This document shows positions 31,609 to 61,900 of a DNA stretch of 64,000 nt, piece by piece. The first letter of the stretch is position 1. The number at the start of each line of letters is the position of its first letter. The stretch is from assembly GCA_039621445.1 (NCBI GenBank), contig CP154954.1, positions 27,392,123 through 27,456,122 on the forward strand, given 5' to 3'. The translations under genes and the position numbers were made by a program. The notes beneath the pieces are model-generated. The model saw only the letters and a list, made by a program, of their open reading frames with translations. It did not search any database and was not told the DNA's origin. Source of the stretch: Euglena gracilis. Its lineage: Eukaryota.

Positions 31609-38355
<6,747 letters not shown>

Positions 38356-40072: not shown

Positions 40073-40075
40073 TTC

Positions 40076-42792
40076 TCAGCGCTGGTCAGGGCGGGGGGCG
40101 ATGCGGGTGATCAGCAGGTGGGTCTTCCCGGACGGCTTCAGCCGGTCGTTGGGCGGCATGAAGCCCAGGTCCACCAGGTACTGGAGGTAGACGTCCATGG
40201 TGGCGTCGATGTCGGGGAACGAGAAGCCGCCGGGGACGCTCGCCAGGCCCGCATCCAGATTTGTCCGCTCCCACTTGGCCGCAGGCCACAGAGGGCTTCG
40301 GTGTAGGCGAAAAAAGGGGGAATGACAGCAAATAAACACAAGTGCTAAGTATAAGCCCAGTATAAATCACTTGGCAGTATAAACACTACGCTCGCCCTTT
40401 CAGCATGCCATCATCATGCAAAAAAAAATCTTGGCGAGCGCCGGGAACAGGCTTCTTTTTAAGACCCCCGGGGGGGGGGGGGAGGGGGGGTCCCCCCCAC
40501 CCACCCAGGGTGGCGCGGGACCCCCGCCCCCCAGGGGGGGCAGGGATGGATGGGAAGCCTTGAGGGGGGGGGGGGGTGGGTCGGACCCCCCCTCCCGACA
40601 CGGAGGGGGGGGGGGGTGGGTCGGGCCCCCCCCTCCTACCTCGAAACTGAGGGGGGGCCGAAATTTTTTCGATTTCATGGACGGGCAAAGGGCCAGAAAT
40701 CGGGTCGGAATCGGTCAAAAACACCTGATTTTTCTTTGAAAATCGTTCCAAAAATGCTCATTTTTTGAATTTTTTTGAACATGTTTTTGGGGGAAAACAC
40801 CAACACATCAAAAAATGGGCAATATGGCCAAAAGTCAGCAAAAGGGGTGTTTTTTGCTCATTTTCCGGCGCGCAGCGCTGGAAGAAAATTTTCTGCTATT
40901 TTTGGCACCTGTCAAGGAGGGGGGGGTGGGGGGGTCCGGACCCCCCCTCCCAACATCTAGGGGGGGGGGGGGGTCCGGACCCCCCCCCTACCCCCTTACC
41001 CCCCCAGGGGGGGGGGGTGGTCGGGACCCCCCCCTACCACCTACCTCAATACCGAAGGGCTTCCCATCCATCCCTGGGGGGGGGACCCCCCCAAAATTGG
41101 GCCCGCTAAAGGCAATTTTCAAAAATTTTCGGTGCTTCGCGCCGAAAAGGTATACCCGGCGCCTCCGGCGCGGGACCCCCGGGGGGGGGGGGGTCAGGTG
41201 ACTTAAAAAGAAGCCTGGCCCGGGAACCCCAAAGAGAAAAAGGTTTCTAGGCTCAAAAAATGCTTCCAAAAAAAACAGTCTCTGGTGGTGGGCGCCTTGG
41301 GCAGCCTGGGCGGGGCGGATGCGCGTGTCCAGCCAGTTCTCTGTGAAGGTTGGCAGGATGGCCGTGAGGGCGTTGGGCTCGGCGCTGTCTCCCTGGCCGG
41401 CGATGGCGGCGATCAGCCGCTGCCACCCCCAGAGGCGTGTTTCCCGTTGGGGCGGGGGGGCGGACCAGGTGATGGGCCACGGTTGGATGCGCAAAAACAG
41501 CCTTCTTTTCCACACCACCTGCCCAGCGTGGGATACCCCCAGAGGGTTTGAAATGAGCGGGAGGGAGGGGGGGAGGGGGTGGGGTGGATCTACTGGAGGG
41601 ACTGGAGGAGCAAGCCCAAAGAAGATGGGAACATCCTTCTGGCTGCCACTCAGCATATGGTACAGGGGTGACGGCGTAACCATTGCGCCTGTCCGAGGAA
41701 GTGAGAAGCAGTGGCACAGCAATTCTTGCAATGAACGGCAGGGCAGCAAAACTGTTCCTGTTTTCCTTATGGCGGCTGTACATCAGGGAGTTTCTTGGCA
41801 ACATGTGTGCGTAATGGTTGCCCATAACCCGGATTAACCCGGATTCAAATTCAGATACTGATAATTTAGAATTATAATCCCCCCCCAAAAACAGCAAAGC
41901 CCAAAAAGAAATAAAAACCAAAGGCCATAAAAAATTTGTGACTTTTAAACTTAACCAACTAGGGCCACTCCTCAGGAGCTCAAAAAATGCCATTTTTGGC
42001 ATGTTTAGTCCTTTTCTTAAAAAAAAATGTTGGTTGGTGCTCTGGTCCAGTATCATATTTTTTTAAGCATGCATGCTGTATGCTGCCTGGTTTATTATGC
42101 AAAGTGAAAGTGAAATAACATTTGTTCGGGGAATTCTTAAGCCGGACCCCTCAGGCCCCCCAACGTTCAAGTGGCAACAAAATTTGCTGACGGGCATTCT
42201 TACGTGAAGAATGCACACGCACAGAAAAACCACACGCAGGGAGATGAGGATAACAGCAACACACCGCAGTGACTCAAAATAGCGTGGGTAGGGGAAGAGC
42301 TGTGGGGACACGACGTGGTACGTCTTGCCATGCGTGTCGGGGTTGATGGCCAGCCGGACCACCGCCCCCGCGACGTAATCCACGGGCGACATGTCGATCC
42401 CCAAGTGCCCCGGCAGATCCGGGTGCAGGCCCAATTGGGTGCAGCCCTTGAGGAAGCGGCAGAGGAAATCGTCCGTGGTCCACTTGCCGGTCTGCGAATC
42501 ACCTGAAGGACAAGAGGGGAGGCGGCAGGATGGGGGGCTTGGCTTGCAGCACCGCTTGGCCAAAATCAGGGCTGGGGGTCTGCAAATCCTTTGAAGAGAA
42601 ACCACGTGCCTGTATTGGCGACATTTCTCTGGTGGACCCTGATGCTCGTGGCTGAGATTCGCAAGAGGAGACACCCGCTGCAGGAGGTTAAGGAGAGCAG
42701 CAGCAGCAGCAGCAACAACAACACCAACACCAACAATCTCCATTTGTGTTTGTTGTTGTTGTTGTTGTTGTTGTTGCTGTTGTTGTTGTTGC

Positions 42793-42844
<52 letters not shown>

Positions 42845-45800
42845 GCTGTTGTTGTTGTTGTTGTTGTTATTTGTGGTGGTTGTTTTTACAGCGCCAACGT
42901 CGCCAGATGCTCGTCTTGCTTTGATGCAAAAGCAGAAAGGGCAGAAGAAATCCCATCATTCATCTTTAGGGGCTGCTGGGCTGGGGCAAAATTGGGTATG
43001 GTTGCACCCTCTGGAAGGTTCTGCAAGACGTTGCAACGATGTGTAACCCCTTTCTCATGGGAGAAGCGGAAGCCCTTGTGTTCCCCTGACACGCACACAC
43101 ACACACAGTGAGGCGCGCACCGGTGATGAAGCCGGGGCGGTAGACGGAGACGGGGATGCCCCGCCGCCGGGCGTTGCCCATCATGGCGTCGGCCACCCAC
43201 TTGCTCTGGCTGTAGCCCCCGTCAATGCCCTCCGTCACCGTGAGGTCCAGCAGCTCCAGAGCCAGGGAGGGGGGAGAGGAGCAGGTCATCGCCGCGGGGA
43301 ACCACAAATGCCCAAAAGGTGAGGAGGGGGGGTGGCAGCAACGGCCCCACTCCCTGGGTGGCACGGATGGCTTGGCCAGCAGGGAGGGGGTCTCGTACAC
43401 GTTGGTGGTGGAGATGTGGTGGCAGCTCTTCAGGCGCGACCCCGCGACGGCGAGCCGCAGCACCGACGGCAGGGCGCTTCGCCCCGAACCAATTGCCTTG
43501 AATGGCGGCCCATCTGGAGAAGCCGCGGGAACATGCTTCTTTTCGGAAATCACCCTTTTATGAGTTCTGGAAAAACTGCGGGTGCGGCTAGAAATTCAAC
43601 AGGCAGGCAATTCCATTGCCAAACTTGGCATTCAGGGTGACAAACACGGTGAGTTCTTTGGCCCTTTTCACTGAACCCAACTTGTCAAAAACCGCCCCGA
43701 AGGTTGAGTTTCGATTTCCAAGGGCATTGGGCTTGGCTTTCGACCATTTGTTCCATATTTGGTACATAAAAAAAGCCGAATAGAGGACATGGGCTTCTGC
43801 CCACACAATGTCCAGGAGTGCCCTGCTCTCTGCCGTGCCGCCGACGTTGATGGGCTTCAGGGTGTAGTAGTCGTGCAGCCAGTTCACCCACGCCCCGACG
43901 TGGAACAGGACGTCGGTGTTGTTGGCCACGTCCTCGTAGGCTTCAGGCGTCAGCCCCAGCTTGGGCTTGGCGAGGTTGCCCGGCAAGATGCGCAGGCGGC
44001 CCTCGCACGCGTCGGTCCACCGACCGATGGCCTCCAGCGCGCAGCTGCACACCCTCCCTTGCAGGCATGGACACCCCGGGGCCCATACCCATGAGGCTAA
44101 ACCTGGGCCTCTGGACCAGGACCCCCCCCTGGGCTTTAAAGCGGAAAGCCACAATGACGTCCATTTTGACCATTTTTGGAACTTTGAGTTGCCTTTTTTG
44201 CCAAAAAAAATATTCATTACCACTGACAAAAATTTCCCGCTATTTTCCCTCAACTTTTGAATTTTCCCAATCATTTTTTCAAAAACAAAATATTGCCATA
44301 ATATTTTCCCCCATAATTTCTGTCTCCTGTAATTTTTGTCTGCATTGTACTGCAGAAAAGCAGCAAAAAGAGCAAGGGAGGGAGTGGCAGAGTCATCCGA
44401 GCCTTGGCCTCGTCGACGCTCTCACTCAGCACCAGGCAGTAGATGGGGCAGTCGGTGAGCTCCACCAAAGTGTGCACCACGAAGCTGCCCACGAACCCGT
44501 CCGCCCCCGTGACGAAGGCCTGTGAGGCAGCACCGCAGACAGCAACGAACAAAAAAAGGCTACGGAGGAGGACGTAAAGTGCGCAATGGCTCTGTTCAGT
44601 AACCTGGGCCATTCAAGGATTTTGTCTGATTTTTCTGCCACCAATTTTATCGGAACAAATTTATCTTTGCCCAATTCCCCATCGCACTGTGTATTTCAGG
44701 CAGGGGTTTTTTTAAGACCGGGGGGGGAGTCCCGGGGGACCCACAAAAAAAAATGGCCGAAAAATCGCGAAAGTGCTAAAACAGCACTTTTTCTGCGCCT
44801 TCGGCGCCGAAAAGTATATCCCCGGGGGGGGGGGGGGCTCAGCCGGACCCAACAACACTACCCCCCCCCGGGAGTCCACGACTAAAAAAAACCCTGATTT
44901 CAGCAGATTCCTTGGGGGAAAAGTAAAATTTTGGGCACGTCAGAAGCAACAAACAGTGGCAACTAACCCCAAAATTATTACCAAAACCCCGGTAATTATT
45001 TGGACACTCGAAATCGAGGGCCGGGAGTTTTTCCATTTGGTGGGTGTCATTTTTGCTGGGGGTGACACAACCTGGACCCTTGAAAAAAGCGATGCAAAAA
45101 GAAGCAAAGAAAACACAAAAAACCCACAAAAAACTCACAAAAAAAGCCAAAAAAACAACAAATTGCATGCAAAATATTTCAGTTGGCATCAGGGCGTTTC
45201 CCCCCCCAGGGGTCTGGGGCTGGAGCTGGGCCCAACTCGGGGTCGAACCGGGTACCAAAAAAAAATCGAAATCACAAAAATGCCCCAAAAACTGCCAATT
45301 ATGCAAAAAAAAAATGTATTATTTGACCCCAAATTTTTGTTGGCCAGCCTAAATTTGACCCATTTTCGCCCATTTTCGCCTATTTTTGACCCATTTTTGC
45401 ACCCCTGAAAACAAAAAATCCGTTACCGTCCAGCCGCCCTTTGGGCAGCTGGAAAATTTTCGTTGAAGGGGGGTTCCCGGGTTGGAAAAGGCTGCTGGCT
45501 GGCTGGCTGGACCCCCCGGGTGGGGTCAAATTTTCTTAAGCTATGCCCTGGCTGGCATGCACACTTTCCGCTTTCTGCTGGAGAGGATTTAGAAGTGGGG
45601 GGGGGGGCTTCTAATTGGGTACCCTTTTGCAGCCTAAAAAATCTTCTGCACTTTGTACCAGGTGTAAAAAGTCTGGCTTTTTGGACTTCGATGTGGAAAT
45701 TGCTCTTTTTTCATTTGCCAAGCGTCCTCTGTCCCAACCCCAGGGTTCGATATAAGGAGAGGAGGGGGGGGGTGGTCCGGACCCCCCCCCCTGCGGGCCA

Positions 45801-48800
45801 GGAGGGGGGGGGTGGGGGGACACCCTCCCCCACCTAAACAGTGGCGCGGTCAGGGTGACCGAAATTTTTTGACCCCCCAAATCGACCAAAGTGCCATTTT
45901 GGGCACTTTTTGGGCAAAAATTGGCCAAAAATGCAAAAAAAAATTCGCACAAAGCGCCGGAGGAAAAAATTGGGTACCCCCGGGTACCCCCCCCCAGGGT
46001 CGGTCCGGACCCCCCTTGCAGGTGGGGGGGGGCGGACCCCCCCTGCGGGCCGGGGGGGGGGGGGGGGACACCCCCCCACCTAAACCATGTACGCCCTCCT
46101 TATATCGAACCCTGCCCAATCCTCTCTCACCAGATGGTTCAAGAAACCAAAAGACTGCTAAGTGTGGCAAAAACCTGATCTCTGTTGCATTTGTGTGTCT
46201 GCAGTTTGCCAGCGCCTTGAATACATGCGGTTGCCTGGGGGGCTGCTATTTGGATTTTTGGTAGGTCAGACCAGGGCGGTCCTTAAGCAAAAAAAAAAAA
46301 ATCCCATCCCGGCACAGCCGAGAAATTTTTTTGAAAATCCATGACCGAAAAGTGGCCGTATTTTGCCCGAAACGGGTCGACTTCGGGAAAAAAAGTGATT
46401 CCTGGCACTTTTGGAACATCGCCCATCCGCCCATAGCGTCAAAAAATGCGTTTTTCGACTTTTTGGTTTTCGACCCCCGTTCAAGTCCCGGTCGATCCTT
46501 GGTCGGGGGGGCGGTCCTTAAGGGGCGGTCCTTAACGAAAAAAAAAAACTTCCCGTCCCTTATGGACCGCCCTGGGTCAGACCATAGCAGGCCCACACCG
46601 CTTCCTCCTGTCCACTAGAGGGCCAATGAAGCTGAAAAAGGATTAGGAAAGTGAGCCATTTCACCCATGGGCAAATCGTAACTTCTTTAAACACAAAAAG
46701 ACCCTTTTTTTTCGAATGTTTCTCAATGTTTTGTCAGAAAAAAACTTCCTCGACAAAAAAAACAGCAACCCTGGCTTGGGGGGGTTTGTTTTAGGAGCCC
46801 AATCTTTTCATTCCCTACCATTTGATGTTTTGAAATTTTCGATTTTTTGGCCCCAAAAGTCCAAAAAAAAAACTGCCCCAAAAGATGCCCCAAAACACCC
46901 CAAAATCAAATGAACTCAGAAAATGGCTGTTTTGGGCCACAAAACCAAGCCCGAACATGTGCCAGGTGTGTCGGCGGCTAAAAATGACGAATGGGGGGGG
47001 TTAGAGGGTCTCCAGAGGCACATTTGGTCTGGCAGACACTTTCGGCAATAATGTGCGACATTCTTTTGAAAAATTGATTTCTCAACCCAAAACCTTACCC
47101 CGGCGAAACGGCAGAGTCGAAACTGGGGGGTGGGGCTAATCCTACCCAGGACCTGGAGTCCCCTTTGTCGGCTGAATAACTCGGGCCTGGATGGGAGTTC
47201 GGTGTCAAACAATTTGGAAAGCTGGGATCCAGTCGCTTGCGATTGAAAATTTTTTTCTGGGAATGGGTTCGGGGTCATGGTGATAATCCGCTGTTCTCAT
47301 GACCAACCTGTGGGGGGGTCCCCCTTTTCCCGGTGTTAAGCTTCACTGTTAAGCAACACTGAAGAGATAAGAGCTCAGCGATAAATACCCCCCAGGGATG
47401 TATGGGAAGCCTGTCGGTTTGAGGTTGGAGTAGGGGTCTTGACCCCTACTAGATGTTGGGTGGGGGTGTCCGGACCATCCTTGGCAGGTTCTAAAAATGG
47501 CTAAATTTTAGTTTCCGGCGCTGTTGTGCTGGGAAGTCCTCTTCCTCATTTTAATCATGTTGCACACTCAGTCATATTGCACATTTCTGGATGTTGTACT
47601 GTTTTCCACATTAAAAAAAAATGCCAAAAAATCAAAATGAGCATTTTCAGAATTTTTTTCAAAGAAGGATCAGGATTTCCCAACAATTTGGTCTGGTATC
47701 CGGTACCCTTTGACCATCCACAGACCAAAAATTTTCCTGGCCCCTTACCGTTTCGAGGTCGGGGGCTCCCATCCCTCTGTGAGTCATTGTCTGGTGCATA
47801 TGCGTCACAGTCCACAGATGTGCGTCACTGTCCGGTGGAGGTGTGTCACCGTTCGGTGGTTGTGCATCATTGTCGGGTGGGTGTGCATCACAGTCCGGTT
47901 TGATGTGTTGGGAGGGGGAGTCCGGACCGCTCCTTAAAATGTGACCCCCCCCCCCCCCCCGCTGGGTGTTGCTGATTGTTTTTTTTCAGACCCCCCCCTT
48001 CTGGCAGTGTGGGCAGCTTGGAATTCCTGAAAATGGTCACCCGGCGCTGGAAAATTTTTGGGATTTTGGCCAAAATCCCTTGATTTTAGGCCATTTTGGC
48101 TATGTGGCCAAAGTGGCCGACGCCCCCCCCCCCCCGGGTGGAAGTGGGTGACTGGTTTTTGAAAACGGCAAGCTACCCTCTACCCCGGGGTGGGGGGGGG
48201 GTTGGTAAGCAATGGTATGGTCTTGACCTCAGGACTTCCCAAACATCCCTGCCCCCCCCCCAAGTACTAATTTTGGCTGCCCAATAATAAACTATCCCTT
48301 CCACACTGTGGAAAAAGGCACAGAAAAAGGAATAAAAATCATCAAAAGCATTGCAAAAATGACAAAAAAGGATGAATTAGTCAGAATAGTAGTCGGAATA
48401 GTAGTCGCAAAAGGGTGCCTGTTTGTGGGGGAAAAAAAAGACCCTAAGTTGCAAAAAGGGGCACAGGTGCCCTGTTGATTCTTTTGTCAATTTTTGATTT
48501 TTGAACATTTTGCAAATACATGACAGGGCAAAGCGTTTTTTGGGTTTTTTTGATTTTAGGAAAATTTATATTTCTGCATTTTTGTTGTGTTTTGTGTTTT
48601 TTTTTGTGGTTTTTTCTATTTTCCCCTGACAATTTTTTGTCTCTTTTGTCATTTTTGCATTTTTTTGTAAAAAAAAGAATTGCAGACTGACCGAATAGTG
48701 CCCTGGGGGGCTTCTAACTGGGGAGGGGGGTTAAAGCGCTGGGGACCATCCATCACCCCACATCTCCAGGGCCAGCTGCGCGCCTGTGCGTGCCACCGGC

Positions 48801-51800
48801 GCAACACAAAACCTGGTCTGGGGGTTTTATCACTTAGTTGGTATTTGGGGGGAGGGAGGGGGTAATTCATCTCATTAAAACGGACCATTTCATAAAATGG
48901 GCCACTTCAAAATTTTGTGCTGTTTCCTTCGTCTGGGAACATTTGGGCCATTTTTTGACTGCACTTTCGTCCGAACCAACATTATTCAAACCCGCACTGT
49001 GGAGTTGGAACAGACGTAGTCCCTTGCATTTCTGCTCCAGGGAAGGACGGCACACCCCAACTGGCTTGCCGGACGGCGGGATGGCCCCGTCCCGCGCCTG
49101 GATGTCGGCCGCCGGCACCGCCTCGGCCAGCATGTCCACCTTGGGGGCCGCCGCCTTGCCCGCACTGCCGGACCGCACGGCGTCGACCGCCGACCCGATG
49201 CGAACAACACAGGCCGCTTGTGCGCACCTCCCTGGGGCTCGAAACTTGCGAAGCGCAACTGCAACTTGGAATTCATTCACCCCCCCCCCTGCCCCCCAGC
49301 TCTCATGTGAAATTGATTGAATTTAGAGTTCTCCAGATGGAGGTTGGAGAATGGAAGGCGATGTGTTGAAGAACATGAACCAGAGAGGGGAGACATGGAT
49401 GAATGGAAAAAAAAACGTTTTGTGTAGCAGAGGAAAGGGAAAAGATAGAAAAAGGTTGGGTGAGAATGTGGTCCAGAGCAAAAAAGGAGTGTTGTTTGAA
49501 GCCGGCGGCAGTTGTCACAGCCACAAGAGGCCTGGCCAGCGGTCTGCTCGTTGAAGATCACGGAGGTGGGCAGCTGGATACCGAACGTTTTGTTCAGCTC
49601 CATCGTGGTCCGGATGGCCGCCAGGGAGTGGCCGCCGACATTGAAGAAGTTGTCCTCCGGGCCTGTGGAGGCAATGAGGGCCGTTTTGGGCCGCCAGGTT
49701 GCCATACCATGCCAGTGTGCAGCCAATGAGCATCAGAGCCGACACGGAGGGCCATCCACCTGCCTGGCAACGCATCCACAGGAGGGGGGGGAGCGATGAT
49801 GGATGAACAGGGATGAATCATGAATGAATGGAGGACGGAGGAGAGAAGGGGGGGGAGCGATGAACTGCGGGTGATGATGCACTCATTTCACAGGATATGT
49901 CAAAGTGACTTGTGTTGTGCCAGGTTTTGCATGCATTGCTTGAGGTCGTTTGGACACATTTGCCGGCCCATGCCCATGCGCTCACACCAACTGCATTGGT
50001 GTGCAGGGCAGCCCGGATCACTTCCAGCACCTTCAGCTGGGTGGGAGTGAGGTGGTCCAGGCTGGCCGTGTTCTCTGGAAGGTCCGCATCCACACTGTCC
50101 AGCGGAGGCAATGCCTGAGAGAGGGGAACAGCATGCATGAGGTAACACAGCGTTGAAATTGTCTCCTTCATTCCCGGGTCAGCAACTATAAAGAATAAAC
50201 GGTTCAGGCAATTAACTTCTTTTGCTGTATAAGGATGCAATTTCACCCAAAACGTCAAAAAAAGCGTTTTTTCAACCTTTTATTTTCGACCCTGTTCATG
50301 CCCCAATCCGCCCCTTGGACGGCCCTTTGGCCTGAGGGCTGTCCTTGAGGGGTGGCCCTTCATGGGAAAAAAAACCAAAATCCGTTGTGAACCGCCCAAA
50401 TCTGAGTTTGGATTAGGATTGGGAAATGCGTGTTTTGTTTGCGCCCTCCAGCTGTGAACAAGGAAAGCCGAGCACGACCTTGTGGTTAATCTTTCCATTC
50501 GGGGTCAGCGGCATCTTCTGCAGCAGAATCACCGCCTTGGGCACCATGTAAGAGGGCACCTTGGTCTTCAGGAACTCCCACACAGGATTCGATGTGAGAG
50601 CGGGAGAGGGGTATCAGTCCGGGTCCCACCCTCGACCACAGGAGGGGGACATCCTCCCCACCTCAAGCTGGGACACCCCCCGGCATCGAACCCTGCTCCC
50701 GCAGCTCACCCGGCAGCGTGGCCACTTGGGCGGCCGCTGCTGCCGTGGGCACGACGTAGCACACAATTTGTTTCTCGCCGGCGCGGTCCAACGCCTCCGG
50801 CAGCCAACTCTCATGTTCAAGCACTGCCGGTGCCTCTGCAAGCATTGTGGCCGATTTCCCCAACTTAGAAAGCAACCCAATCAGAGTTAAACCAAGACAC
50901 CCCGGTTGTTAGAAGAGCCCAGTGAATGCCAAACTTAATCTGAGGGTCAGCACACAGAGAACTGGCTGGCCACACGGGTGACGCTCTCCTTCACGGCCGG
51001 GTGGGAGCTCAGCTTGGCGTTGATCTCCCCCAATTCGATGCGGAAGCCCCGGATCTTGATCTGGTCATCGGCCCGGCCGACGCACTCCACGTCGCCGCTG
51101 GGGAGGTAGTGGCCCAGGTCTCCCGTGCGGTACCAGCGGTCCCAGGCCACAGAGGGTTAATGGGCAAGGGTCGCCTGGGTGATTAACAAGTAAAAAGTCT
51201 TTATGGTGCGTCTGTATGCGTGTGGGCGTGCGAATGAGTGAGAAAGTGCACGTGAATGCGGGTGGGTGAATGTGCATGTGTGTGTGTGTGTGTTTGCGTG
51301 TGTGCGTGCGTGCACGTGTGTGTATTGTGTAGATGGGTGTGCGCGCGCATGCATTTTGTGTGGGTGTGGTGTGGTGTGGTGTGGTGTGGTGTGGTGTGGT
51401 GTGGTGTGGTGTGGTGTGGTGTGGTGTGGTGTGGTGTGGTGTGGTGTGGTGTGTGTGTGAGTGTGAGTGTGTGTGAGTTTGGATCCGTCACATTGTGGTC
51501 ACGATTGTGGTCTGTGGTCACGAGTGTGTGCAGGTGGACAGTTGCGTTCCAGGCCTCCTTGGGTGGAAGGGGTTGGGAATGAACTTGGCCGCCGTGTCCT
51601 CTGGCAAACCAAGGTAGCCCTTGGAGAGATGCGGACTGCGCACATAGATCTCTGCCGCCTCCCCAAAGCCCGCCTGGAGGCCAGCTTTGTTCAGCAGAAT
51701 CAGCCCCACGTCCTTCTGGCGCATGGCACGGCCCCCAGACGAGAAATGCCGCCAATCGATCTGCATGAAACGTTTGGATGTTGTTCCGGGGGGATTCTGA

Positions 51801-54800
51801 AAATAAAGCGACTACTGCCGGTGAAGATCAAGCTTCAGAACAGCAGGTCAACCAGCTCGAAACAGGACAAGACTTTTTTTGGAGGAAATGGTCCAGTTGG
51901 TTGGGTGTTCTGAGGAACTCAATGGAAACATGCCAAATTGAGAAACCCTATTCCAAAATAATTAAAAACGAAATCGAAACGAACAAACAAAAAGTTCATT
52001 CAGAAGATATTTTATTTCAAAAAAAGGGGGAAACATTTGTATAAAAAAAAACAAGCACATAGCGCAGCATTTGGGCTTTCAGTGCAAGAAATTGATGATT
52101 CTACAGCTGCTAGAAAGACCCAAAAGAGAGCACTAACGCAGAGATGAATTGACAAAATTTTCTCCAAAATGTTTCCAACTGCAATTTCTCTGGGCGAGCC
52201 TCTGCTCCAAATCCATTGCATCACCCACAAATGGGCCCTGCCCACCCACCTTGGCCTGAGGCCAGCCGTCATTTGCCGCCCCATGTGCATGCCCCGGCCG
52301 CAGGGAATGATCTCCTTCAGCTTGGCCAGCTGGGCAGCATCCCGGGGCACCTCGTAGTACCCCACCGACCGCTGGGTCTCCGTGGTGCCGAACATGTTCA
52401 CCACCTGAGAGGCCGGTGGCCCGCACATGGCTGTTGACGGCAATCCAGATAACAACCGGGCAGGACAGCTGGGGCGCCCCGCACACCTTGACGTTGGGCG
52501 CCAGCTTGTGCAACAGCAGCACGTCCCGCTTGATGAGGACGTCGCCCACGAAGAGGCACACTTTGAGGGACGGGATCGTGAAGGTGGGATCCTGGAAGGA
52601 AAGACACGGACGCTGAGAACGTCGCCAGGACGTGGCATTCACAACTGACTTTCAGGGAGCAACCGCCGCACCATCGACATTCAAAAATCACCTTCCAAAT
52701 AAATGCTTACCTCGCAGTCAGGATTCGATGTACAGCAGGGAAATTGAATGGTGGGACGGTCCAGGGAAACTAAATAGTGGAACACCCCCAAAAAATGCTA
52801 ATCCCCCGGAGACCATCCAGGGATTTGTGCTTATCCTTTTTTGGGAGGTCAAATTCTTATCCGTAGTTATCCGTAGTTATCCGTAGTTATCCGTAGTTAT
52901 CCGTAGTTATCCTTATTTGCTAAAATACCCTTCCTGACAGGGGATATCCATCTAGAAATGGCTGCAATTGAAAAGATGAAGAGAGTTGATCATCATAAAC
53001 CTCAGGAATGCCTAAAATTTGTGAAATATGACAATCTAAACAGAAAACGACAAGCATCCAAGGGCAGATGGAAACAACACTGTCCGGTGTGGGTTTTTTT
53101 AAAATCTTTCATCCACCGTTCTTCACAATCACCGTTGCAGAACATGCCACCGGCTGCCTGCCGGAGGTGAGACGACATCCTCTGTCGGCTTTTAACATCA
53201 ATGACGCCGGCCAAACTGAAAGCAGCCCATCTCTTTATAGGATGTACGCTGCCAAATGAAAAATTGTAGCGAAAAAAAAGCTGAAGAAAAGGGCTGCTTG
53301 AAAGACCGTTCAATCACTGCACTAGAGACAGGAAAATAGACATGAAAAACAGTCTCAGAAAGGGCGGGCTCACGTTGAGCCCAGAAAGGCCGAATGTCTC
53401 GTCAAAAATTTTGCTTATCCATAGTTATCCGTAGTTATCCGTAGTTATCCTTATTCAGACTTTTGGGCTCATCCGTAGTTATCCGTAGTTATCCGTTTTT
53501 ATCCGTATTTGGGGGTTTCAGGCTTATCCGTAGTTATCCGTAGTTATCCGTAGTTATCCATTTCAGGATAAGCACAAATCCCTGGACCATCTGCGATTGC
53601 AAAGGCCTTTCAAATTGTTGCAATATCAGGAGGCTTCAATGTGCGGCATGTATAAGGTGCACCCAGTACCATCCAACGGATAGCCTAGGGCTGTGGGGGG
53701 GCCTGTCAGCGATGGTTGGGACCACCATGAGCGTCGAGCACAACAGCAAGGCGGCTGGGAATCGACGTGTATAAAACTCGAATTTGTTCGGGAGAAATGT
53801 CAGCAAAAAGCACGCCCACCCCCATCCACGCCCACCCACCAGCCCCCCCCCCTCAACCCCACAAACCCGCCAACCCCTCCCCCCCCATCCATCATCCCCC
53901 CCAAGCAGCCCCCCACCTCCCGGTCAGGCCCCCCCCACCCCCCCCCCCCACCAGCCCCCCCCCCCCTCACCCCCCCCCGCCTCACACCACCAGCCAAATC
54001 ACCACCTCCCCCCCCCCAGCACCATCACCCCCACCAACGAGCAAACACCACCTCCACAGCACCATCACACACAACCCCCCAGCATACGCAATCACCCAAC
54101 CAAAACACGCTGCAGAGCTGCCCGTTCGTTTCGGTTAGGGAAAACCATCCTTCGAGCTTTGCAAGCAGAAACACCCACAGGTGTTCGATCGGTTGAGGTC
54201 CGGGCTCATTTCTGTGTTGCAAACAGGCCTCGTTCTTCGTCACCTTGCATGGGGGGAGGGGGCAGGGTGTTCAATCCACCTCTTATCTGGGAGATGCATC
54301 TGCCCCAGCCCATCATCAGATCATTTCCCCCCATTTGCTAAGCCTGTGCCTCACACTTCACAAGGGGAACGTTTGCGCAGAACCTCATGCTGGAGATTCC
54401 AACAAGATGGTGCACCGGCCCACCGAGCAAGACGCACGACGTCCTGGCTGCGGGACAATGCCGTGAAGATGCTGGATAACGGGTCCTGTGCAGGCATCTG
54501 CTTGGAGTTAGTGGATCTCATCAGTTTGCCAGGCGTAGGCGTGGGGAGGTCTCCGCGGTCCACTGTGAATGATGCATTTTCCAAGCTCTCATCGAAACCG
54601 TTCCCCTTGTGAAGTGTGAGGCACAGGCTTAGCAAATGGGGGGAAATGATGGGCTGGGGCAGATGCATCTCTCCCAGATGAGAGGTGGATTGAACACCCC
54701 ATGCAAGGTGAAGAAACGAGGCCTGTTTGCGGCACACAATGAGCCCGGACCTCAACCCGATCGAGCACCTGTGGGTGTTTCTGCTTGCAAAGCTCGAAGG

Positions 54801-57800
54801 ATGTGTTTTCCCTAACCGAAACGAACTTTGGGCAGCTCTGCAGCGTGCTTTTGCTGACATTTCTCCCGAACAAACTCGAGTTTTATACGCGTCGATGCCC
54901 AGCCGCCTTGCTGCTGTGCTCGATGCTCATGGTGGTCCCACCCGTTACTGACAGACCCCCCACGGCCCTAGGCCATCCGTTGGATGGTACTGGGTACACC
55001 TTATACATGCCGCACATTGAAGCCTCCTGATATTGCAACAATTTGAAAAGCCTTTGCAACTCGCAGATGGTCTCCGGGGGATTAGCATTTTTGGGGGGTG
55101 TTCCACTATTTAGTTTCCCTGGACCGTCCCACCACTTAATTTCCCTGCTGTAAGGGATGGTGGGGTCGGACCCCAATGGTGGGAGGGGGGGATTGGACCG
55201 TGCTACTGTTTAGGTGGGGAGTGACATCCCCCTCCCACACCTGAACTGCAGCGTGGTCCAGGTGACTAATTTTCGGCCCGGCGCTTTGTGCCAGGCCGAA
55301 AAATTTTCGCTGCCAAAGCGGCCAAAACTGCATTTTTGGAACTTTTTGGGGTAAAATTTGTCAAAAATGCAAAAAAAAAAGGCTCGCAGCGACGGAAAGA
55401 AAATTTTGATCTTTTGGGGGGTCCCCCAGGGGTCGGTCAGGACTCCCCTGGCAGGTGGGAGAGATGGTCCGGATCCCCCCCTCCGGTCCAGGAGGCGGGG
55501 GGGACACCCCCCCAACTAAACCCCGTGCACACTCCTTGTATTGAACCCTGGTACGGAGTGTCATCTCAAATTTTTTTTATCCGGGTTTTTGAAACCTCCG
55601 ATATCGAGGCTGTACTGGGGTATAATCTGAAAACCACAAAAAAGCCACCCCCCTTTGGACTGAGGGTGGGACCTTCCCCAGGAACCCACAAAAATATTTT
55701 CCGGGCTTCGTGCACGTTTCAAGCCCCCCCAGAATTCCAGCGCTTCACGCCGCAATTTTTTTTTGGCACGGGGGTGGATGCACGTCTGTGTGCTGGCGTG
55801 CGTGCATGTGTGCAGGTGGGTTGGTGGTTGTGGGTCCAGGGTTTTCAGGTGAAATTCAAATAAGACACCTGGTGGGATTTGGGGTGGTTAGGACTCTCCC
55901 CTTGGGGGGGTCTGACCCACCAGGAGGTGAACAAGCATATGAACCTGCATGTTCTAGCATGTGTAGGCGCGTCGCACACATGCATCCCCTCCAGGTGGCA
56001 GGTGCTATGGGTGGATGGCATTGCTCAAATAAGGGAAGGATGGACCGCAATATGAAGGGGGGGGGGGGTGGGACCCACCCCATCTGACCACTTTGCAAAC
56101 CAGGTGGCACAGCCACAAATGAAGGATTCACCCTAAAATCGATGCTCTGGAAGAAAAAAAATGGCAGGGAGGTGCAACACGCTGACAGTGCGCTGCAGAG
56201 AACTGCAAAAGAACTGCAGAAAGAAACTGCAAAAAAGAAACGCATAGAAAAAGAACTTTAAATTTCTGCTGTGCCTAGAGAAATTCGATTTTTTTCAAAA
56301 AACTTTCATGAAAGAAAAAGGATGCAAAAACCTTGGCCTGACATTTTCAAATTTTTGCTTTTGAAAAAAGAAAAAAAATTGTTTTAAAAAAACTCCAATT
56401 CAAAAAATCCATTCCAAATCCAAAAATCCACACCAAAAAAAACTGCAAGAAACTGCTCAGAACACATTTCCCCCCTCTGCGTGCGCATGTGCAGCTGCCC
56501 ATTTTTTGGATCGTCCAATTTTTGTTTTGATGTTTCATGTCCTGCTTGGCCCAAAGGGGTGGGGGAGGCAGCGGGTTTCTTCCCCACCGGCCTAAAGAGT
56601 TTATTGCCTCTGATACGAACATGGCTGAGTGGGAATTCCAGCAACTCTATTGCCTCTGATACGAACATGGCTGAGTGGGAATTCCAGCAACTCTTGGCTT
56701 GCAGGTGACCTGTCCATCCACCCCCAGCTCCCTTTTTGCTTTCAGCAAGCACACACGTTCACACACTCACGCACACCCACCCACACAAACATCCACCCAC
56801 ACCATACAATTGCTTACCGACCCCCCGGGGGGGGGGGGAGGGGGGTCACTCCACTTTTTTAAAAACCAGTCAGTCACTCATTTTCAAAAAACCAGCCAGT
56901 CACTACCCCCCCAGGGGGGGGAGGTCGGCCACTCAGAAAAATGGCCACTTTCCAGTCACTTTAGGTCATTTTAGGCCCAAAAAAATTTTCCGGCGCCTTC
57001 GGCGCCGGGGTCACTCAAGCCACTTTTGCCCACTCCTGGCCGCCCCCCCCCGCCCCCCCCCCCGGGGGGGGGGGGGGAGGGGGTCCGGGCCAAAAACCAG
57101 TCAGTCACCCCGGGGGGTGGGGTCGGTCAGTGCTTAAGCAATTGCCTGACCCACACGCACCCACCCACCTACCCACACACCTCAACCGTGATCAAGATCT
57201 GGCCCATTGCAGGAGTGCAGCAGGATTGTGTGATTTGGTTGTCGTACATCCATCTGGCCAACTGCCCCGGGGTGGTGATGGTATCCTGTGTTTCCAGCAG
57301 TGGATGACCTTCACCCACCATTGAAAGAAGGACAAACAAACAACAAAGAATACACGGGATATGGGTGGTGAAATGTTGCGTAAAAAGAATCCATGGGGAA
57401 TTGTTCTGAAATCACAGATCGAAAAAAAGCGGGGGGGAAAAAGATGTAGAAAACGAGTTACGAAATTATGCCGAGAAAATCAAAGATTAAACCCAACACT
57501 TTACAACAGGGCATGCTCTGCTTGGAATGCAGATGGTAGCTCCAAGGAAAAGTGGGGTGAAGATATCTCGCTGCAGAGGGTCATGGGCAATTCCACTGCA
57601 CATAGCAAAGCGGTCAGATTCTCCCGCTGGCAAGCAGCTGTGGACAGTTGCAACACCAGCAGAGGCAAGGGTGAAGGGCAGAAAGGTCACATTTGCTAAT
57701 ACAGGAAAACAATCCTATCAGTGAAAAAATCCTGTCCCAATGACGGTTGCATCCTGACTCCTGGCAACCAGAGGTGCTTGGGCATGCCAAACCGCTGAGA

Positions 57801-57845
57801 CATCCAGGGATAGAAAGCGGTGAGAGGGCTGTGCTTGCAAGACAC
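40076..57845 (-). CDS. LYS2: L-2-aminoadipate reductase-like enzyme (adenylation, carrier and thioester-reductase domains), 5'-incomplete; exons 57845-57784, 57625-57524, 57292-57181, 52591-52487, 52404-52289, 51716-~51565, ~51158-50972, 50795-50699, 50577-50479, 50114-49988, 49662-49538, 49205-49056, 44519-~44394, ~44040-43829, 43464-43360, 43257-43121, 42502-42265, 41688-41645, 41424-41312, 40276-40076
   Basis: LYS2-type motifs occur in order: [89 protein letters not shown], carrier FF..GGHSL, Rossmann [48 protein letters not shown]. There are 7 GT-AG and 12 nonconventional introns. Confidence 0.9.
40448..41217. mobile_element. MITE (CAGGCTTC family) carrying a nested MITE (~40541-41076, TIR CAGGGATGGATGGGAAGCC)
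   Basis: Outer TIRs match the 37960 element, with near-TSD GCCGGGAA. The inner TIR pair is flanked by G runs. Confidence 0.8.
42696..42868. repeat. (CAG/CAA)n followed by a long (GTT)n tract
   Basis: Direct inspection; lies inside LYS2 intron 43120-42503. Confidence 0.95.
44701..44896. mobile_element. MITE with CAGGG...CCCTG ends
   Basis: TSD ATTTCAGG/ATTTCAGC (7/8); ends resemble the 39784 element. Confidence 0.75.
45741..46114. mobile_element. hAT-like MITE (TIR CAGGGTTCGATATAAGGAG)
   Basis: 19-bp TIR with TSD CCCAACCC/CCCAATCC (perfect in the duplicate copy at ~60608-60979). Related copies lie at 52717-55550 (split by the Tc1 element) and inside intron 50578-50698. Confidence 0.9.
46272..46574. 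mobile_element. hAT-like MITE (TIR CAGGGCGGTCC)
   Basis: Perfect 8-bp TSD GGTCAGAC at 46264-46271 and 46575-46582. Confidence 0.9.
46916..47278 (-). mobile_element. Possible decayed LTR-retrotransposon integrase fragment
   Basis: [24 protein letters not shown] resembles the end of a Ty3/gypsy integrase zinc-finger region; no other motif was recognised. Confidence 0.3.
51363..51452. repeat. (GGTGT)n pentanucleotide microsatellite
   Basis: Direct inspection. Confidence 0.95.
52733..55150 (+). mobile_element. Foldback Tc1/mariner-like element (DD37E-type transposase 3' half) with long inverted arms, inside LYS2 intron 57180-52592
   Basis: Ends TA|CAGCAGGGAAATT ... AATTTCCCTGCTG|TA. 52733-~54370 (minus two insertions) is the reverse complement of ~54598-55150. 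Encodes [12 protein letters not shown] (~54397) and [11 protein letters not shown]...[19 protein letters not shown] (54742-54951). Confidence 0.85.
52818..53584. mobile_element. MITE with 20-bp TIR, 7-bp TSD and subterminal (ATCCGTAGTT)n arrays
   Basis: GACCATC|CAGGGATTTGTGCTTATCCT ... AGGATAAGCACAAATCCCTG|GACCATC. The opposite foldback arm (~55066-55072) shows the empty site with a single copy of GACCATC. Confidence 0.9.
56602..56693. repeat. Perfect 46-bp tandem duplication
   Basis: TATTGCCTCTGATACGAACATGGCTGAGTGGGAATTCCAGCAACTC occurs twice in tandem. Confidence 0.9.
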
Positions 57846-58922: not shown

Positions 58923-58935
58923 NNNNNNNNNNNNN
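58923..58935. other. Assembly gap
   Basis: 13 N characters. Confidence 1.
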
Positions 58936-61900
58936 ACACCCTCCCTTGCAGGCATGGACACCCCGGGGCCCATACCATGAGGCTAAACCTGGGCCTCTGG
59001 ACCAGGACCCAACCCTGGGCTTTAAAGCGGAAAGAGACAATGACGTCCATTTTGACCATTTTTGGAACTTTGAGTTGCCTTTTTTGCCAAAAAAAATATT
59101 CATTACCACTAAAAAAAATTTACCGCTTTTTCCCTCAACTTTTGAATTTTCCCAATCATTTTTTCAAAAACAAAATATTCCCATAATATTTTCCCCCATA
59201 ATTTCTGTCTCCTGTAATTTTTGTCTGCATTGTACTGCAGAAAAGCAGCAAAAAGAGCAAGGGAGGGAGTGGCAGAGTCATCCGAGCCTTGGCCTCGTCG
59301 ACGCTCTCACTCAGCACCAGGCAGTAGATGGGGCAGTCGGTGAGCTCCACCAAAGTGTGCACCACGAAGCTGCCCACGAACCCGTCCGCCCCCGTGACGA
59401 AGGCCTGTGAGGCAGCACCGCAGACAGCAACGAACAAAAAAAGGCTACGGAGGAGGACGTAAAGTGCGCAATGGCTCTGTTCAGTAACCTGGGCCATTCA
59501 AGGATTTTGTCTGATTTTTCTGCCACCAATTTTATCGGAACAAATTTATCTTTGCCCAATTCCCCATCGCACTGTGTATTTCAGGCAGGGGTTTTTTTAA
59601 GACCGGGGGGGGGGGGTCCCGGGGGACCCACAAAAAAATGGCCGAAAAATCGCGAAAGTGCTAAAATAGCACTTTTTCTGCGCCTTCGGCGCCGAAAAGT
59701 ATATCCCCCGGGGGGGGGGGGGCTCAGCCGGCCCCCCCCCCCCTACCCCCCCCCCGGGGGTCCACGACTAAAAAAAACCCTGATTTCAGCAGATTCCTTG
59801 GGGGAAAAGTAAAATTTTGGGCACGTCAGAAGCAACAAACAGTGGCAACTAACCCCAAAATTATTACCAAAACCCCGGTAATTATTTGGACACTCGAAAT
59901 CGAGGGCCGGGAGTTTTTCCATTTGGTGGGTGTCATTTTTGCTGGGGGTGACACAACCTGGACCCTCGAAAAAAAGCGATGCAAAAAGAAGCAAAGAAAA
60001 CACAAAAAACCCACAAAAAACCCACAAAAAAAAAGCCAAAAAAACAACAAATTGCATGCAAAATATTTCAGTTGGCATCAGGACGTTCCCCCCCCCCCAG
60101 GGGTCCGGGGCTGGAGCTGGGCCCGACTCGGGGTCGAACCGGGTACCAAAAAAAACATCGAAATCACAAAAATGCCCCAAAAACTGCCAATTATGCAAAA
60201 AAAAATGTATTATTTGACCCCAGATTTTTGTTGGCCAGCCCAAATTTGACCCAATTTCGCCCATTTTCGCCTATTTTTCACCCATTTTTGCCATTTTTGC
60301 ACCCCTGAAAACAAAAAATCCGTTACCGTCCAGCCGCCCTTTGGGCAGCTGGAAAATTTTCGTTGAAGGGGGGTTCCCGGGTTGGAAAAGGCTGCTGGCT
60401 GGTTGGCTGTGCCCTGGCTGGCATGCACACTTTCCGCTTTCTGCTGGAGAGGATTTAGAAGTGGGGGGGGGGGCTTCTAATTGGGTACCCTTTTGCAGCC
60501 TAAAAAATCTTCTGCACTTTGTACCAGGTGTAAAAAGTCTGGCTTTTTGGACTTCGATGTGGAAATTGCTCTTTTTTCATTTGCCAAGCGTCCTCTGTCC
60601 CAACCCCAGGGTTCGATATAAGGAGAGGAGGGGGGGGTGGTGGTCCGGACCCCCCCTGCGGGCCAGGAGGGGGGTGTGGTGGGGACACCCTCCCCCACCT
60701 AAACAGTGGCGCGGTCAGGGTGACCGAAATTTTTTGACCCCCCAAATCGACCAAAGTGCCATTTTGGGCACTTTTTGGGCAAAAATTGGCCAAAAATGCA
60801 AAAAAAAATTCGCACAAAGCGCCGGAGGAAAAAATTGGGTACCCCCGGGTACCCCCCCCCAGGGTCGGTCCGGACCCCCCTTGCAGGTGGGGGGGGGGCG
60901 GACCCCCCCTGCGGGCCAGGGGGGGTGGGGGGACACGCCCCCACCTAAACCATGTACGCCCTCCTTATATCGAACCCTGCCCAACCCTCTCTCACCAGAT
61001 GGTTCAAGAAACCAAAAGACTGCTAAGTGTGGCAAAAACCTGATCTCTGTTGCATTTGTGTGTCTGCAGTTTGCCAGCGCCTTGAATACATGCGGTTGCC
61101 TGGGGGGCTGCTATTTGGATTTTTGGTAGGTCAGACCAGGGCGGTCCTTAAGCAAAAAAAAAAAAATCCCATCCCGGCACAGCCGAGAAATTTTTTTGAA
61201 AATCCATGACCGAAAAGTGGCCGTATTTTGCCCGAAACGGGTCGACTTCGGGAAAAAAAGTGATTCCTGGCACTTTTGGAACATCGCCCATCCGCCCATA
61301 GCGTCAAAAAATGCGTTTTTCGACTTTTTGGTTTTCGACCCCCGTTCAAGTCCCGGTCGATCCTTGGTCGGGGGGGCGGTCCTTAAGGGGCGGTCCTTAA
61401 CGAAAAAAAAAAACTTCCCGTCCCTTATGGACCGCCCTGGGTCAGACCATAGCAGGCCCACACCGCTTCCTCCTGTCCACTAGAGGGCCAATGAAGCTGA
61501 AAAAGGATTAGGAAAGTGAGCCATTTCACCCATGGGCAAATCGTAACTTCTTTCAACACAAAAAGACCCTTTTTTTTCGAATGTTTCTCAATGTTTTGTC
61601 AGAAAAAAATTTCCTCGACAAAAAAAAACAGCAACCCTGGCTTGGGGGGGTTTGTTTTAGGAGCCCAATCTTTTCATTCCCTACCATTTGATGTTTTGAA
61701 ATTTTCGATTTTTTGGCCCCAAAAGTCCAAAAAAAAAACTGCCCCAAAAGATGCCCCAAAACACCCCAAAATCAAATGAACTCAGAAAATGGCTGTTTTG
61801 GGCCACAAAACCAAGCCCGAACATGTGCCAGGTGTGTCGGCGGCTAAAAATGACGAATGGGGGGGTTAGAGGGTCTCCAGGGGCACATTTGGTCTGGCAG

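What the first reader, a model, noticed from the sequence alone, without database searches (positions are those of the whole stretch)
50575..50703. A nonconventional intron that is still recognisably a MITE with its TSD
Seen: the 121-nt LYS2 intron 50698-50578 (minus strand GAG-CAGGGTTCGATG...CATCGAATCCTG-TGTGG) must be removed to join ..[12 protein letters not shown]... Its stem ends match the TIR of the MITE at 45741 (CAGGGTTCGAT) and of the copy at 52717 (CAGGATTCGATGT, 13 nt identical). Its interior follows the MITE interior (GTCCGG..CCC..CAGGAGGGGG..ACA.CCTCCCCACCT.AA). It is flanked by an 8-bp direct repeat, CTCCCACA/CTCCCGCA (7/8). Inference: a MITE inserted into an exon and became a precisely removed intron, an intron-generating element using the non-GT-AG route.
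Basis: partly seen in the sequence, partly recalled or inferred. Interest (0 to 1): 0.95.

Follow-up and report, generated by a model that had tools for sequence, protein, structure and literature searches.

The report
Transposon-derived nonconventional intron in Euglena LYS2
A 121-base intron without the usual GT-AG ends in a Euglena gracilis lysine-pathway gene still looks like a small DNA transposon with its insertion scar, which gives concrete support to an old idea about where these odd introns come from.

Summary
The window is Euglena gracilis. A LYS2-type gene lies on the minus strand. RNA-seq from two studies (45 and 17 reads) and one transcript contig skip exactly 121 nt at 50575-50700, and the junction can slide by 5 nt. 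A transcript-derived protein reads GELREFLKT across the join.

Inside the intron is a 113-nt element (50583-50695). It has 12-nt terminal inverted repeats, 11/12 in the window and 12/12 in another DNA run, and an 8-bp flanking repeat matching 7/8. Its termini are those of a 374-bp repeat at 45741 and 60607 that has an 8-bp target-site duplication. That repeat collects about 5000 times single-copy depth in a DNA run.

Interior similarity is only modest (p about 0.001 to 0.04).

Thirteen of 102 CAG...CTG inverted-repeat pairs in the window have 8-bp flanks identical at 7/8 or better. None of 102 shifted controls do.

A related species' genomic ORF is uninterrupted at this site.

The intron fits the published splicing code: N3-CAG...CTG-N5, then a purine. 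Since 3+5 equals the 8-bp duplication, splicing removes the element plus one duplicate copy.

MITE origin of these introns has been a published hypothesis since 2013. I found no family-level example in print.

The parts
50578..50698 (-). 121-nt nonconventional intron of the LYS2-type gene, in the N3-CAG...CTG-N5 register. Equivalent positions run from 50575-50695 to 50580-50700.
   Evidence: Junction search against P0013. RNA-seq joint skipping 121 nt in X21, X24 and X15. 13-bp terminal stem in the RNA fold.
50583..50695 (.). 113-nt MITE-like element, running from CAG to CTG.
   Evidence: Inverted repeat I2. Its best non-self BLAST hits in the window are the ends of the repeat family, and they end exactly at the element termini.
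50583..50594 (+). Terminal inverted repeat arm, CAGGATTCGATG. X11 has G at 50587, which makes the repeat 12/12.
50684..50695 (-). Terminal inverted repeat arm, CAGGGTTCGATG when read on the minus strand.
50575..50582 (.). Target-site duplication copy CTCCCACA (minus strand TGTGGGAG). Its last 5 intron-side bases are spliced out.
50696..50703 (.). Target-site duplication copy CTCCCGCA (minus strand TGCGGGAG, which codes ..L R E).
50699..50791 (-). Upstream exon, residues 705-736 of P0013: LDRAGEK...PGELR(E).
50479..50577 (-). Downstream exon, residues 736-768: [13 protein letters not shown]...NGKINHK.
45741..46114 (+). 374-bp MITE copy with the same termini. Its 8-bp duplication is CCCAACCC/CCCAATCC. 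It lies inside the 4536-nt conventional intron.
   Evidence: In DNA run X11 the summed depth here is 2.4-2.7e5, against 44-60 over exons. 33 contigs end at 46114 with differing flanks.
60607..60979 (+). The same insertion in the duplicated block 58936-64000. Its duplication CCCAACCC/CCCAACCC is perfect (8/8).
52719..52800 (+). Left end of a third, diverged copy. Its first 13 nt are identical to the intron's plus-strand end. The extent towards 52800 is approximate.
55296..55550 (+). Right part of that diverged copy (72.8% to the 374-bp copy). This is the best match to the intron interior.
40079..57845 (-). LYS2-type gene (alpha-aminoadipate reductase type), residues 425-1295 of P0013. It has 12 nonconventional and 7 GT-AG introns.

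Best explanation
A short non-autonomous DNA transposon (MITE) inserted into a coding exon of the Euglena gracilis LYS2-type gene. It belongs to a group of elements with CAG...CTG termini and an 8-bp target-site duplication. The insertion duplicated the target TGCGGGAG (inferred).

In the pre-mRNA the two inverted repeats pair into a 13-bp stem that brings the exon ends together (predicted fold). The nonconventional-intron machinery of euglenids cuts 3 nt before the CAG and 5 nt after the CTG; this rule was established experimentally by others. It therefore removes the 113-nt element plus 8 nt, which equals one copy of the duplication. The mRNA returns to the pre-insertion reading frame (removal shown by RNA-seq).

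So the insertion is tolerated and persists as a nonconventional intron. The match between the 3+5 spacer rule and the 8-bp duplication length is my inference from this locus and the published code.
For: Splicing:
- 62 RNA reads from two studies plus one transcript contig skip exactly 121 nt. No other joint at this place appears among the 15 joints shown; 270 more joints are not shown.
- P0013 reads GELREFLKT across the site.

Code fit:
- The intron has N3=GAG, CAG...CTG, N5=TGTGG, and the next base is G. This matches the signature in the abstract and section 8 of PMC12501133.

Transposon anatomy:
- The inverted repeat is 11/12, or 12/12 in X11.
- The 8-bp flanks match 7/8. The one mismatch lies in the part of the duplicate that is spliced out.

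Family:
- The termini are identical over 11-13 nt to three other loci in the window.
- With the intron as query, the best non-self hits are the family ends, collinear and stopping at the termini, with E from 1.5e-5 to 0.015.
- The family copy at 60607 has a perfect 8-bp duplication.
- The family stretch has about 5000 times the summed depth of exons in DNA run X11, and contigs break at its last base.

Generality:
- 13 of 102 CAG...CTG inverted-repeat pairs have 8-bp flanks identical at 7/8 or better, against 0 of 102 shifted controls. These are 10 independent loci from several families.

Age:
- Among the gene's 12 nonconventional introns, only this one keeps its flanks (7/8, against 1-5/8 for the other 11).

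Absence in a relative:
- Genomic ORF P0116 of a related species is uninterrupted at this site. That species' full-length orthologue P0121 is 76.6% identical to P0013.
Against: - Interior similarity to the two 374-bp copies is weak: 19-28 of 1000 shuffles reach it, and the reverse-complement control scores nearly as high. Only the diverged copy at 55296-55550 gives 1 of 1000.
- With the 374-bp copy as query, the intron end ranks 44th of 713 HSPs.
- At 95% likeness the intron has single-copy depth in X11 (46, against 44-60 over exons). No near-identical sister copies were seen.
- All 12 nonconventional introns have 6-11 of 12 complementary end bases, because splicing needs a stem. An inverted repeat alone therefore does not mark a transposon.
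- No empty site was seen in the 1 DNA run laid.
- Gain versus loss rests on one relative, with no outgroup.
- No transposase or autonomous partner was found in the window.
- A scan of metagenome contigs for the terminal pair found 7 loci, all unrelated.
Confidence: 0.75

Rival explanations
1. The intron arose by another route, such as double-strand-break repair with filler DNA, as proposed for an E. agilis gapC intron with 8-nt repeats. Its ends resemble the repeat family only through the constraints of nonconventional splicing (CAG/CTG plus a stem) and chance.
For: - All 12 nonconventional introns of the gene have CAG-type ends and complementary termini.
- Interior similarity is weak.
- The break-repair idea is in print (PMC4770533, passages read).
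Against: - The splicing code needs only C-D-G/C-H-G and spacers. The 8 further shared bases (GGTTCGAT) at both ends are not required, and none of the other 11 nonconventional introns has them.
- The 11-mer is found only in family copies and this intron.
- The flank repeat has exactly the 8-bp length that 10 independent CAG...CTG elements show.
Confidence: 0.1
2. The direction is the reverse. The repeat family descends from mobilised nonconventional introns, for example excised circles copied back into DNA. On this reading the intron is the older form and the intergenic copies are its offspring.
For: - Nonconventional introns are reported to be released as full-length circles (review PMC11282704, passage read).
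- The intron is shorter and simpler than the 374-bp copies.
Against: - An 8-bp duplication with inverted termini is the mark of cut-and-paste DNA transposition. It is seen for several unrelated-looking families in the window.
- The intron is absent from a relative's gene.
- The family has very high depth, while the intron sequence itself is single-copy.
- A copied excised circle would carry the 3+5 spacer bases, and the copies at 45741 and 60607 do not show them.
Confidence: 0.1
3. It is not an intron. On this reading the 121 nt would be an assembly artefact or a strain-specific insertion that disrupts the gene.
For: The window has an N gap and a duplicated block nearby.
Against: - An independent DNA run has the 121 nt in place on a 1067-nt contig.
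- RNA from three runs lacks it precisely.
Confidence: 0.01

Closest known systems
Euglenid nonconventional introns (Euglena gracilis / E. agilis). Splicing code N3-CDG...CH'G-N5-6|R (PMC12501133).
   Same: - The ends are not GT-AG.
- CAG lies at +4..+6 and CTG at -8..-6.
- The next exon starts with a purine.
- A terminal stem forms.
- The junction can slide because of a direct repeat.
- All of these were met here.
   Different: This one retains termini that can be assigned to a repeat family, and a near-intact 8-bp flanking duplication. The other 11 nonconventional introns of the same gene do not.
Recently gained gapC intron 4 of E. agilis strain ACOI 323 (PMC4770533).
   Same: It is a young nonconventional intron with eight-nucleotide direct repeats at the junctions (passage read).
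   Different: - The authors attributed those repeats to double-strand-break repair.
- The passages I read name no repeat family. Their supplementary Table S3 could not be seen.
- Here the termini match a high-copy element that has its own 8-bp duplication.
Introners: MITE-like elements that create spliceosomal introns, in Micromonas, dinoflagellates and others (review PMC11282704; PMC9860276 seen in search listing only).
   Same: A transposon family whose insertion into exons is neutralised at the RNA level, with the target-site duplication supplying part of the splice geometry.
   Different: - Introners use GT-AG (or modified) spliceosomal sites and short 3-5-nt duplications.
- Here the route is the nonconventional one, with cuts inside an 8-bp duplication and no GT-AG.
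hAT-type DNA transposons and their MITEs; the maize Ds element spliced as an intron (cited in PMC3935182 as Giroux 1994, seen in the reference list only).
   Same: An 8-bp target-site duplication and short inverted termini beginning with CAG. That these are hAT hallmarks is recalled knowledge and was not tested.
   Different: No hAT transposase or autonomous partner was found in the window. Other superfamilies also make 8-bp duplications, so the superfamily is not established.

Membership tests
Euglenid nonconventional intron | Removed from mature mRNA, with no GT/GC-AG borders at any equivalent position | tested here: met
   RNA-seq joint skipping 121 nt. None of the 6 equivalent positions has GT..AG ends.
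Euglenid nonconventional intron | Signature N3-CDG ... CH'G-N5-6 followed by a purine (PMC12501133 abstract) | tested here: met
   GAG-CAG ... CTG-TGTGG | G
Euglenid nonconventional intron | Terminal base-pairing that brings the intron ends together | tested here: met
   13-bp terminal stem in both the MFE and centroid folds. The whole-molecule z-score is only -1.44.
Euglenid nonconventional intron | Excised as a full-length circle, independent of the spliceosome | not tested
   The single read-laying run listed no back-joint among the 15 rows shown, and 270 rows were not shown.
MITE (miniature inverted-repeat transposable element) | Short, non-coding, with terminal inverted repeats | tested here: met
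   113 nt. The repeat is 11/12, or 12/12 in X11.
MITE | Flanked by a target-site duplication of the family's length | tested here: met
   7/8 here. The family copy at 60607 is 8/8. 13 of 102 CAG...CTG pairs have 7/8 or better, against 0 of 102 controls.
MITE | Member of a multi-copy family with similarity along the element | tested here: inconclusive
   The termini are shared with 3 other loci, and the family stretch has very high depth. Interior similarity gives p of about 0.001 to 0.04, and the intron itself is single-copy at 95% likeness.
MITE | Presence/absence polymorphism showing mobility | tested here: inconclusive
   Absent from a related species' genomic ORF. Present in the 1 other DNA run laid.
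hAT superfamily | 8-bp target-site duplication | tested here: met
hAT superfamily | Autonomous partner encoding a hAT transposase with the same termini | not testable with these tools
   No whole genome is held. The 146 window ORFs of 130 aa or more were inspected by eye only. The 4 ORFs sent to Pfam gave no family.
Introner (spliceosomal) | Creates GT-AG (spliceosomal) splice sites on insertion | tested here: not met
   No GT-AG register exists. It works like an introner but is not one in the spliceosomal sense.

The most novel reading that the evidence does not exclude
The nonconventional splicing system of euglenids acts as an RNA-level 'precise excision' device matched to one class of DNA transposons. 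Its fixed spacers, 3 nt before CAG and 5 nt after CTG, add up to the 8-bp target-site duplication of CAG...CTG-ended MITEs. Any such insertion in a transcript, in either orientation, is therefore erased without a scar if the sixth duplicated base is a purine. On this reading most nonconventional introns (over 70% of introns in E. agilis) are decayed MITEs of this class, and the 121-nt LYS2 intron is a young one caught before its scar faded.
Probability: 0.35. Interest if true: 0.85.

Novelty: new variant of a known kind. Interest (0 to 1): 0.66.

Why it matters
The origin of euglenid nonconventional introns has been open since they were described. MITE insertion was proposed in 2013 and was still called unclear in 2025.

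This locus gives a concrete case with every part in place:
- termini that can be assigned to a repeat family;
- a duplication of that family's length;
- confirmed splicing;
- absence of the intron in a relative.

It also links the experimentally defined 3-nt and 5-nt spacers to the 8-bp duplication. That link explains why such insertions are harmless.

The hypothesis becomes testable genome-wide, by checking whether young nonconventional introns cluster into MITE families with 8-bp scars. It is also testable at the bench, by knocking in a family copy with duplications of 7, 8 or 9 bp.

Tried and rejected
- **Whole genome:** none is held. The family consensus and the count of spliced exonic copies could not be made.
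- **Metagenome scan:** a scan of metagenome contigs for the two termini 75-105 nt apart gave 7 loci. None has the G/C-rich interior, and they appear unrelated. That used the only scan, so the relative's transcript contig could not be fetched.
- **Earlier findings of this scan:** three look-ups returned nothing.
- **tRNA or known RNA origin:** the TTCGA-containing terminus suggested a tRNA link, but ARAGORN found 0 genes and no Rfam match reached its gathering score.
- **Transposase in the material between 52800 and 55295:** 4 ORFs gave no Pfam family at E<=0.01. One stretch looked transposase-like to my eye, and I drop that.
- **Other nonconventional introns as family members:** BLAST of all 12 against the window at E<=1e-3 found only microsatellites, the duplicated block, and MITEs nested in the 1035-nt intron.
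- **First BLAST with the 374-bp copy as query:** at E<=0.01 it did not list the intron. With no HSP cap the intron's end is rank 44 of 713.
- **Literature:** four searches found no paper that assigns a euglenid nonconventional intron to a named or sequence-defined transposon family. Supplements were closed, so such a case in a supplementary table cannot be excluded.
Full report
**What the window is.**
- The exon at 50968-51156 matches a 1295-aa protein from a Euglena gracilis transcriptome (P0013, EukProt EG_transcript_671) at 100% identity.
- The best NCBIfam hit of P0013 is TIGR03443, L-aminoadipate-semialdehyde dehydrogenase (LYS2 type). It matches end to end at 877.6 bits, which is below the curated cut-off of 1030.
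- tblastn places residues 425-1295 on the minus strand between 57845 and 40079. Residues 1-407 are not in the window.

**Gene structure.**
- I searched for splice positions that reproduce P0013 exactly and found 19 introns.
- Seven have a GT-AG register.
- Twelve have none. All twelve fit N3-C-(A)-N ... complementary triplet-N4-6, and the next exon starts with a purine in 12 of 12. The 3' spacer is 5 nt in 10 introns, 6 nt in 1 and 4 nt in 1.
- This is the nonconventional code that Nomura et al. defined by knock-in experiments (PMC12501133, abstract and section 8 read).

**The finding itself.**
- The 121-nt intron has six equivalent positions, because GGGAG stands at both borders.
- In the N3/N5 register it runs 50698-50578: GAG-CAG...CTG-TGTGG, followed by G.
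- I laid raw RNA-seq reads from two studies, one transcript-like contig set and one DNA contig set on 44300-51200.
- The joint 50574 to 50696, skipping 121 nt, is carried by 45 reads (38 start points) in X21, by 17 reads (16 start points) in X24, and by a 3853-nt contig in X15.
- The five other joints predicted from the protein (4536, 332, 325, 364 and 176 nt) are seen in the same runs.
- DNA run X11 has no such joint. Its 1067-nt contig crosses the intron.
- X11 has G at 50587, which makes the terminal repeat a perfect 12/12.
- The RNA fold gives a 13-bp terminal stem. It leaves 2 nt free at the 5' end and 4 nt at the 3' end.

**Transposon anatomy.**
- The element 50583-50695 (113 nt) has 12-nt inverted termini.
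- It is flanked by CTCCCACA and CTCCCGCA, which match 7/8.
- Read on the coding strand, the duplicates are TGCGGGAG and TGTGGGAG. The one difference lies in the five bases of the downstream duplicate that are spliced out and so are free to change.
- The chance of 7 or more matches out of 8 at one given place is about 4e-4. This is my arithmetic, assuming equal base use.

**The family.**
- The 11-mer CAGGRTTCGAT occurs exactly seven times in the window. Two occurrences are the intron ends. Four are the two ends of a 374-bp element at 45741-46114 and of its counterpart at 60607-60979. One is at 52719.
- The copy at 60607 has a perfect 8-bp duplication, CCCAACCC.
- The copies at 45741 and 60607 are not independent. 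Block 58936-64000 repeats 44049-49132 at 96.5-97.2% identity, directly after an N gap.
- The end at 52719 and the 255 nt at 55296-55550 (72.8% to the 374-bp copy) look like the two halves of a third, older copy split by about 2.5 kb of other material. Its flanks do not match.
- In DNA run X11 the bins over the 374-bp element sum to 2.4-2.7e5 word depth, against 44-60 over exons. 33 contigs end exactly at 46114 with differing continuations.
- The tool warns that summed depth is not a copy number. I take it only as evidence of a very abundant repeat whose boundary is the last base of the inverted repeat.

**How similar is the intron to the family?**
- With the intron as query, the best non-self hits in the 64-kb window are all ends of family copies. 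They are collinear and stop at the termini:

| Window hit | E-value |
|---|---|
| 55467-55550 | 1.5e-5 |
| 46060-46114 | 4e-5 |
| 60928-60979 | 8e-4 |
| 60607-60703 | 0.002 |
| 45741-45838 | 0.015 |

- For the 89-nt interior alone, 28 of 1000 dinucleotide shuffles reach the observed score against the 45741 copy, 19 of 1000 against the 60607 copy, and 1 of 1000 against the 55296 copy. The reverse-complement control is almost as high for the first two.
- Measured against 17,558 real segments of the window, the interior is in the top 0.24% for the 55296 copy and the top 3.7% for the 45741 copy. The segments that beat it are themselves MITE-like stretches at about 9.0-9.2 kb and 40.5-40.9 kb.
- With the 374-bp copy as query, the intron end ranks 44th of 713 HSPs.
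- At 95% likeness the intron has single-copy depth.
- So the termini and the scar carry the argument. The interior adds modest support.

**Eight base pairs is the rule for CAG...CTG elements here.**
- I scanned for inverted pairs that start with CAG, with 11 nt compared, at most 1 mismatch, spacing of 40-3000 nt, and trinucleotide-repeat arms dropped. This gave 102 pairs.
- Thirteen have 8-bp flanks identical at 7/8 or better. None of 102 does when the flanks are shifted by 20 nt.
- After removing three pairs that lie in the duplicated block, ten loci remain, from several families with different termini. Perfect duplications include GGCTGGCA, TTCTCAGC and GGTCAGAC.
- The intron is the only one of the ten inside coding sequence.

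**Why the intron is harmless.**
- The published code fixes 3 nt before the CAG and prefers 5 nt after the CTG.
- For an element that starts with CAG, ends with CTG and is flanked by an 8-bp duplication, these cuts fall between bases 5 and 6 of each duplicate. The spliced product therefore carries exactly one duplicate.
- Here 113 + 8 = 121 nt are removed, and TGCGG + GAG is restored, reading L-R-E.
- The term 'target site duplication' does not occur in the main text of PMC12501133.
- The 2024 review draws TSD-like repeats at the borders of these introns (PMC11282704, passages read).
- I did not see the 3+5=8 argument stated in the passages I read.

**Age and polarity.**
- Of the twelve nonconventional introns, this one has 7/8 flank identity and the other eleven have 1-5/8.
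- A related species has a full-length orthologue, P0121, that is 76.6% identical and named L-aminoadipate-semialdehyde dehydrogenase by its source.
- That species also has three ORF fragments on one 830-kb contig.
- The fragments look like plain genomic ORFs. P0122 starts with M where the full-length protein has V. P0116 and P0122 both end in tails, absent from the full-length protein, that begin at positions where E. gracilis has GT-AG introns (768/769 and 1098/1099).
- P0116 and P0122 run uninterrupted across 7 of the 7 E. gracilis nonconventional intron sites they span, including this one.
- This fits the published pattern of conserved conventional introns and lineage-specific nonconventional introns (PMC3935182, PMC4770533). 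It also fits a gain in the E. gracilis lineage.
- With one relative and no outgroup, a loss is not excluded.
- I could not read that contig's DNA.

**What is known.**
- Milanowski et al. proposed MITE-like insertion as a source of these introns in 2013 (PMC3935182, passages read).
- In 2016 they reported a strain-specific E. agilis gapC intron with eight-nucleotide direct repeats, and suggested break repair as its source (PMC4770533, passages read).
- The 2025 genome-scale study still calls the origin unclear (PMC12501133, Discussion passage).
- Four full-text searches returned no paper that ties such an intron to a sequence-defined repeat family.

**Verdict.**
- It is evidence for a published hypothesis rather than a new idea. 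It is also an unusually complete single case.
- Together with the 8-bp rule across ten loci, it makes the hypothesis directly testable.

Noticed in passing
39784-40072 (flanks 39776-39783 and 40073-40080): A 289-nt MITE with termini CAGGGGTTTTTT... sits 3 nt after the LYS2 stop codon. Its 8-bp duplication GCTGAGAA is perfect and contains the stop. On the coding strand it fits the nonconventional code (GAA-CAG...CTG-GCTGA|G). It may therefore be a 297-nt intron in the 3' untranslated region. Splicing was not tested.
   Followed up: partly
58923-64000 versus 44049-49132: Block 58936-64000 repeats 44049-49132 at 96.5-97.2% identity, directly after a 13-N gap. It includes two LYS2 exons and three MITEs. 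Exons for residues 1-407 are missing from the window. This could be an allelic or paralogous piece placed by scaffolding, or a real partial duplication.
   Followed up: partly
window-wide: 63-685, 29819-30109, 37960-38198, 39784-40072, 40541-41076, 44701-44896, 45741-46114, 46272-46574, 53664-54992: Several different families of CAG...CTG-ended elements have 8-bp flanking duplications identical at 7/8 or 8/8. Their termini differ after CAGG, for example CAGGCTTCTTTTTAAG, CAGGGGTTTTTTT, CAGGGCGGTCC and CAGGGATGGATGGGAAGCC.
   Followed up: partly
40277-41311: The 1035-nt nonconventional intron holds two nested MITEs: 40448-41217, and inside it 40541-41076. Most of this intron is therefore later insertions.
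   Followed up: partly
gene 40079-57845: The gene has 12 nonconventional and 7 GT-AG introns. A related species' genomic ORFs lack 7 of the 7 nonconventional sites they cover, but end at two GT-AG intron positions that are shared with E. gracilis.
   Followed up: yes
53627-55029: A long near-perfect palindrome: many nested inverted pairs centre near 54480. It lies inside the material that splits the third MITE copy. Four ORFs from this area gave no Pfam family.
   Followed up: partly
50744, 51033, 51067, 51082, 51091: Exonic positions where about half or more of the RNA reads differ from the window. These are probably alleles or strain differences. X11 DNA shares two of them (51033 and 51067).
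   Followed up: no
51277-51475 and 42750-42884: A GT-rich microsatellite lies inside the 406-nt nonconventional intron. A (TTG)45 array lies inside the 618-nt GT-AG intron.
   Followed up: no
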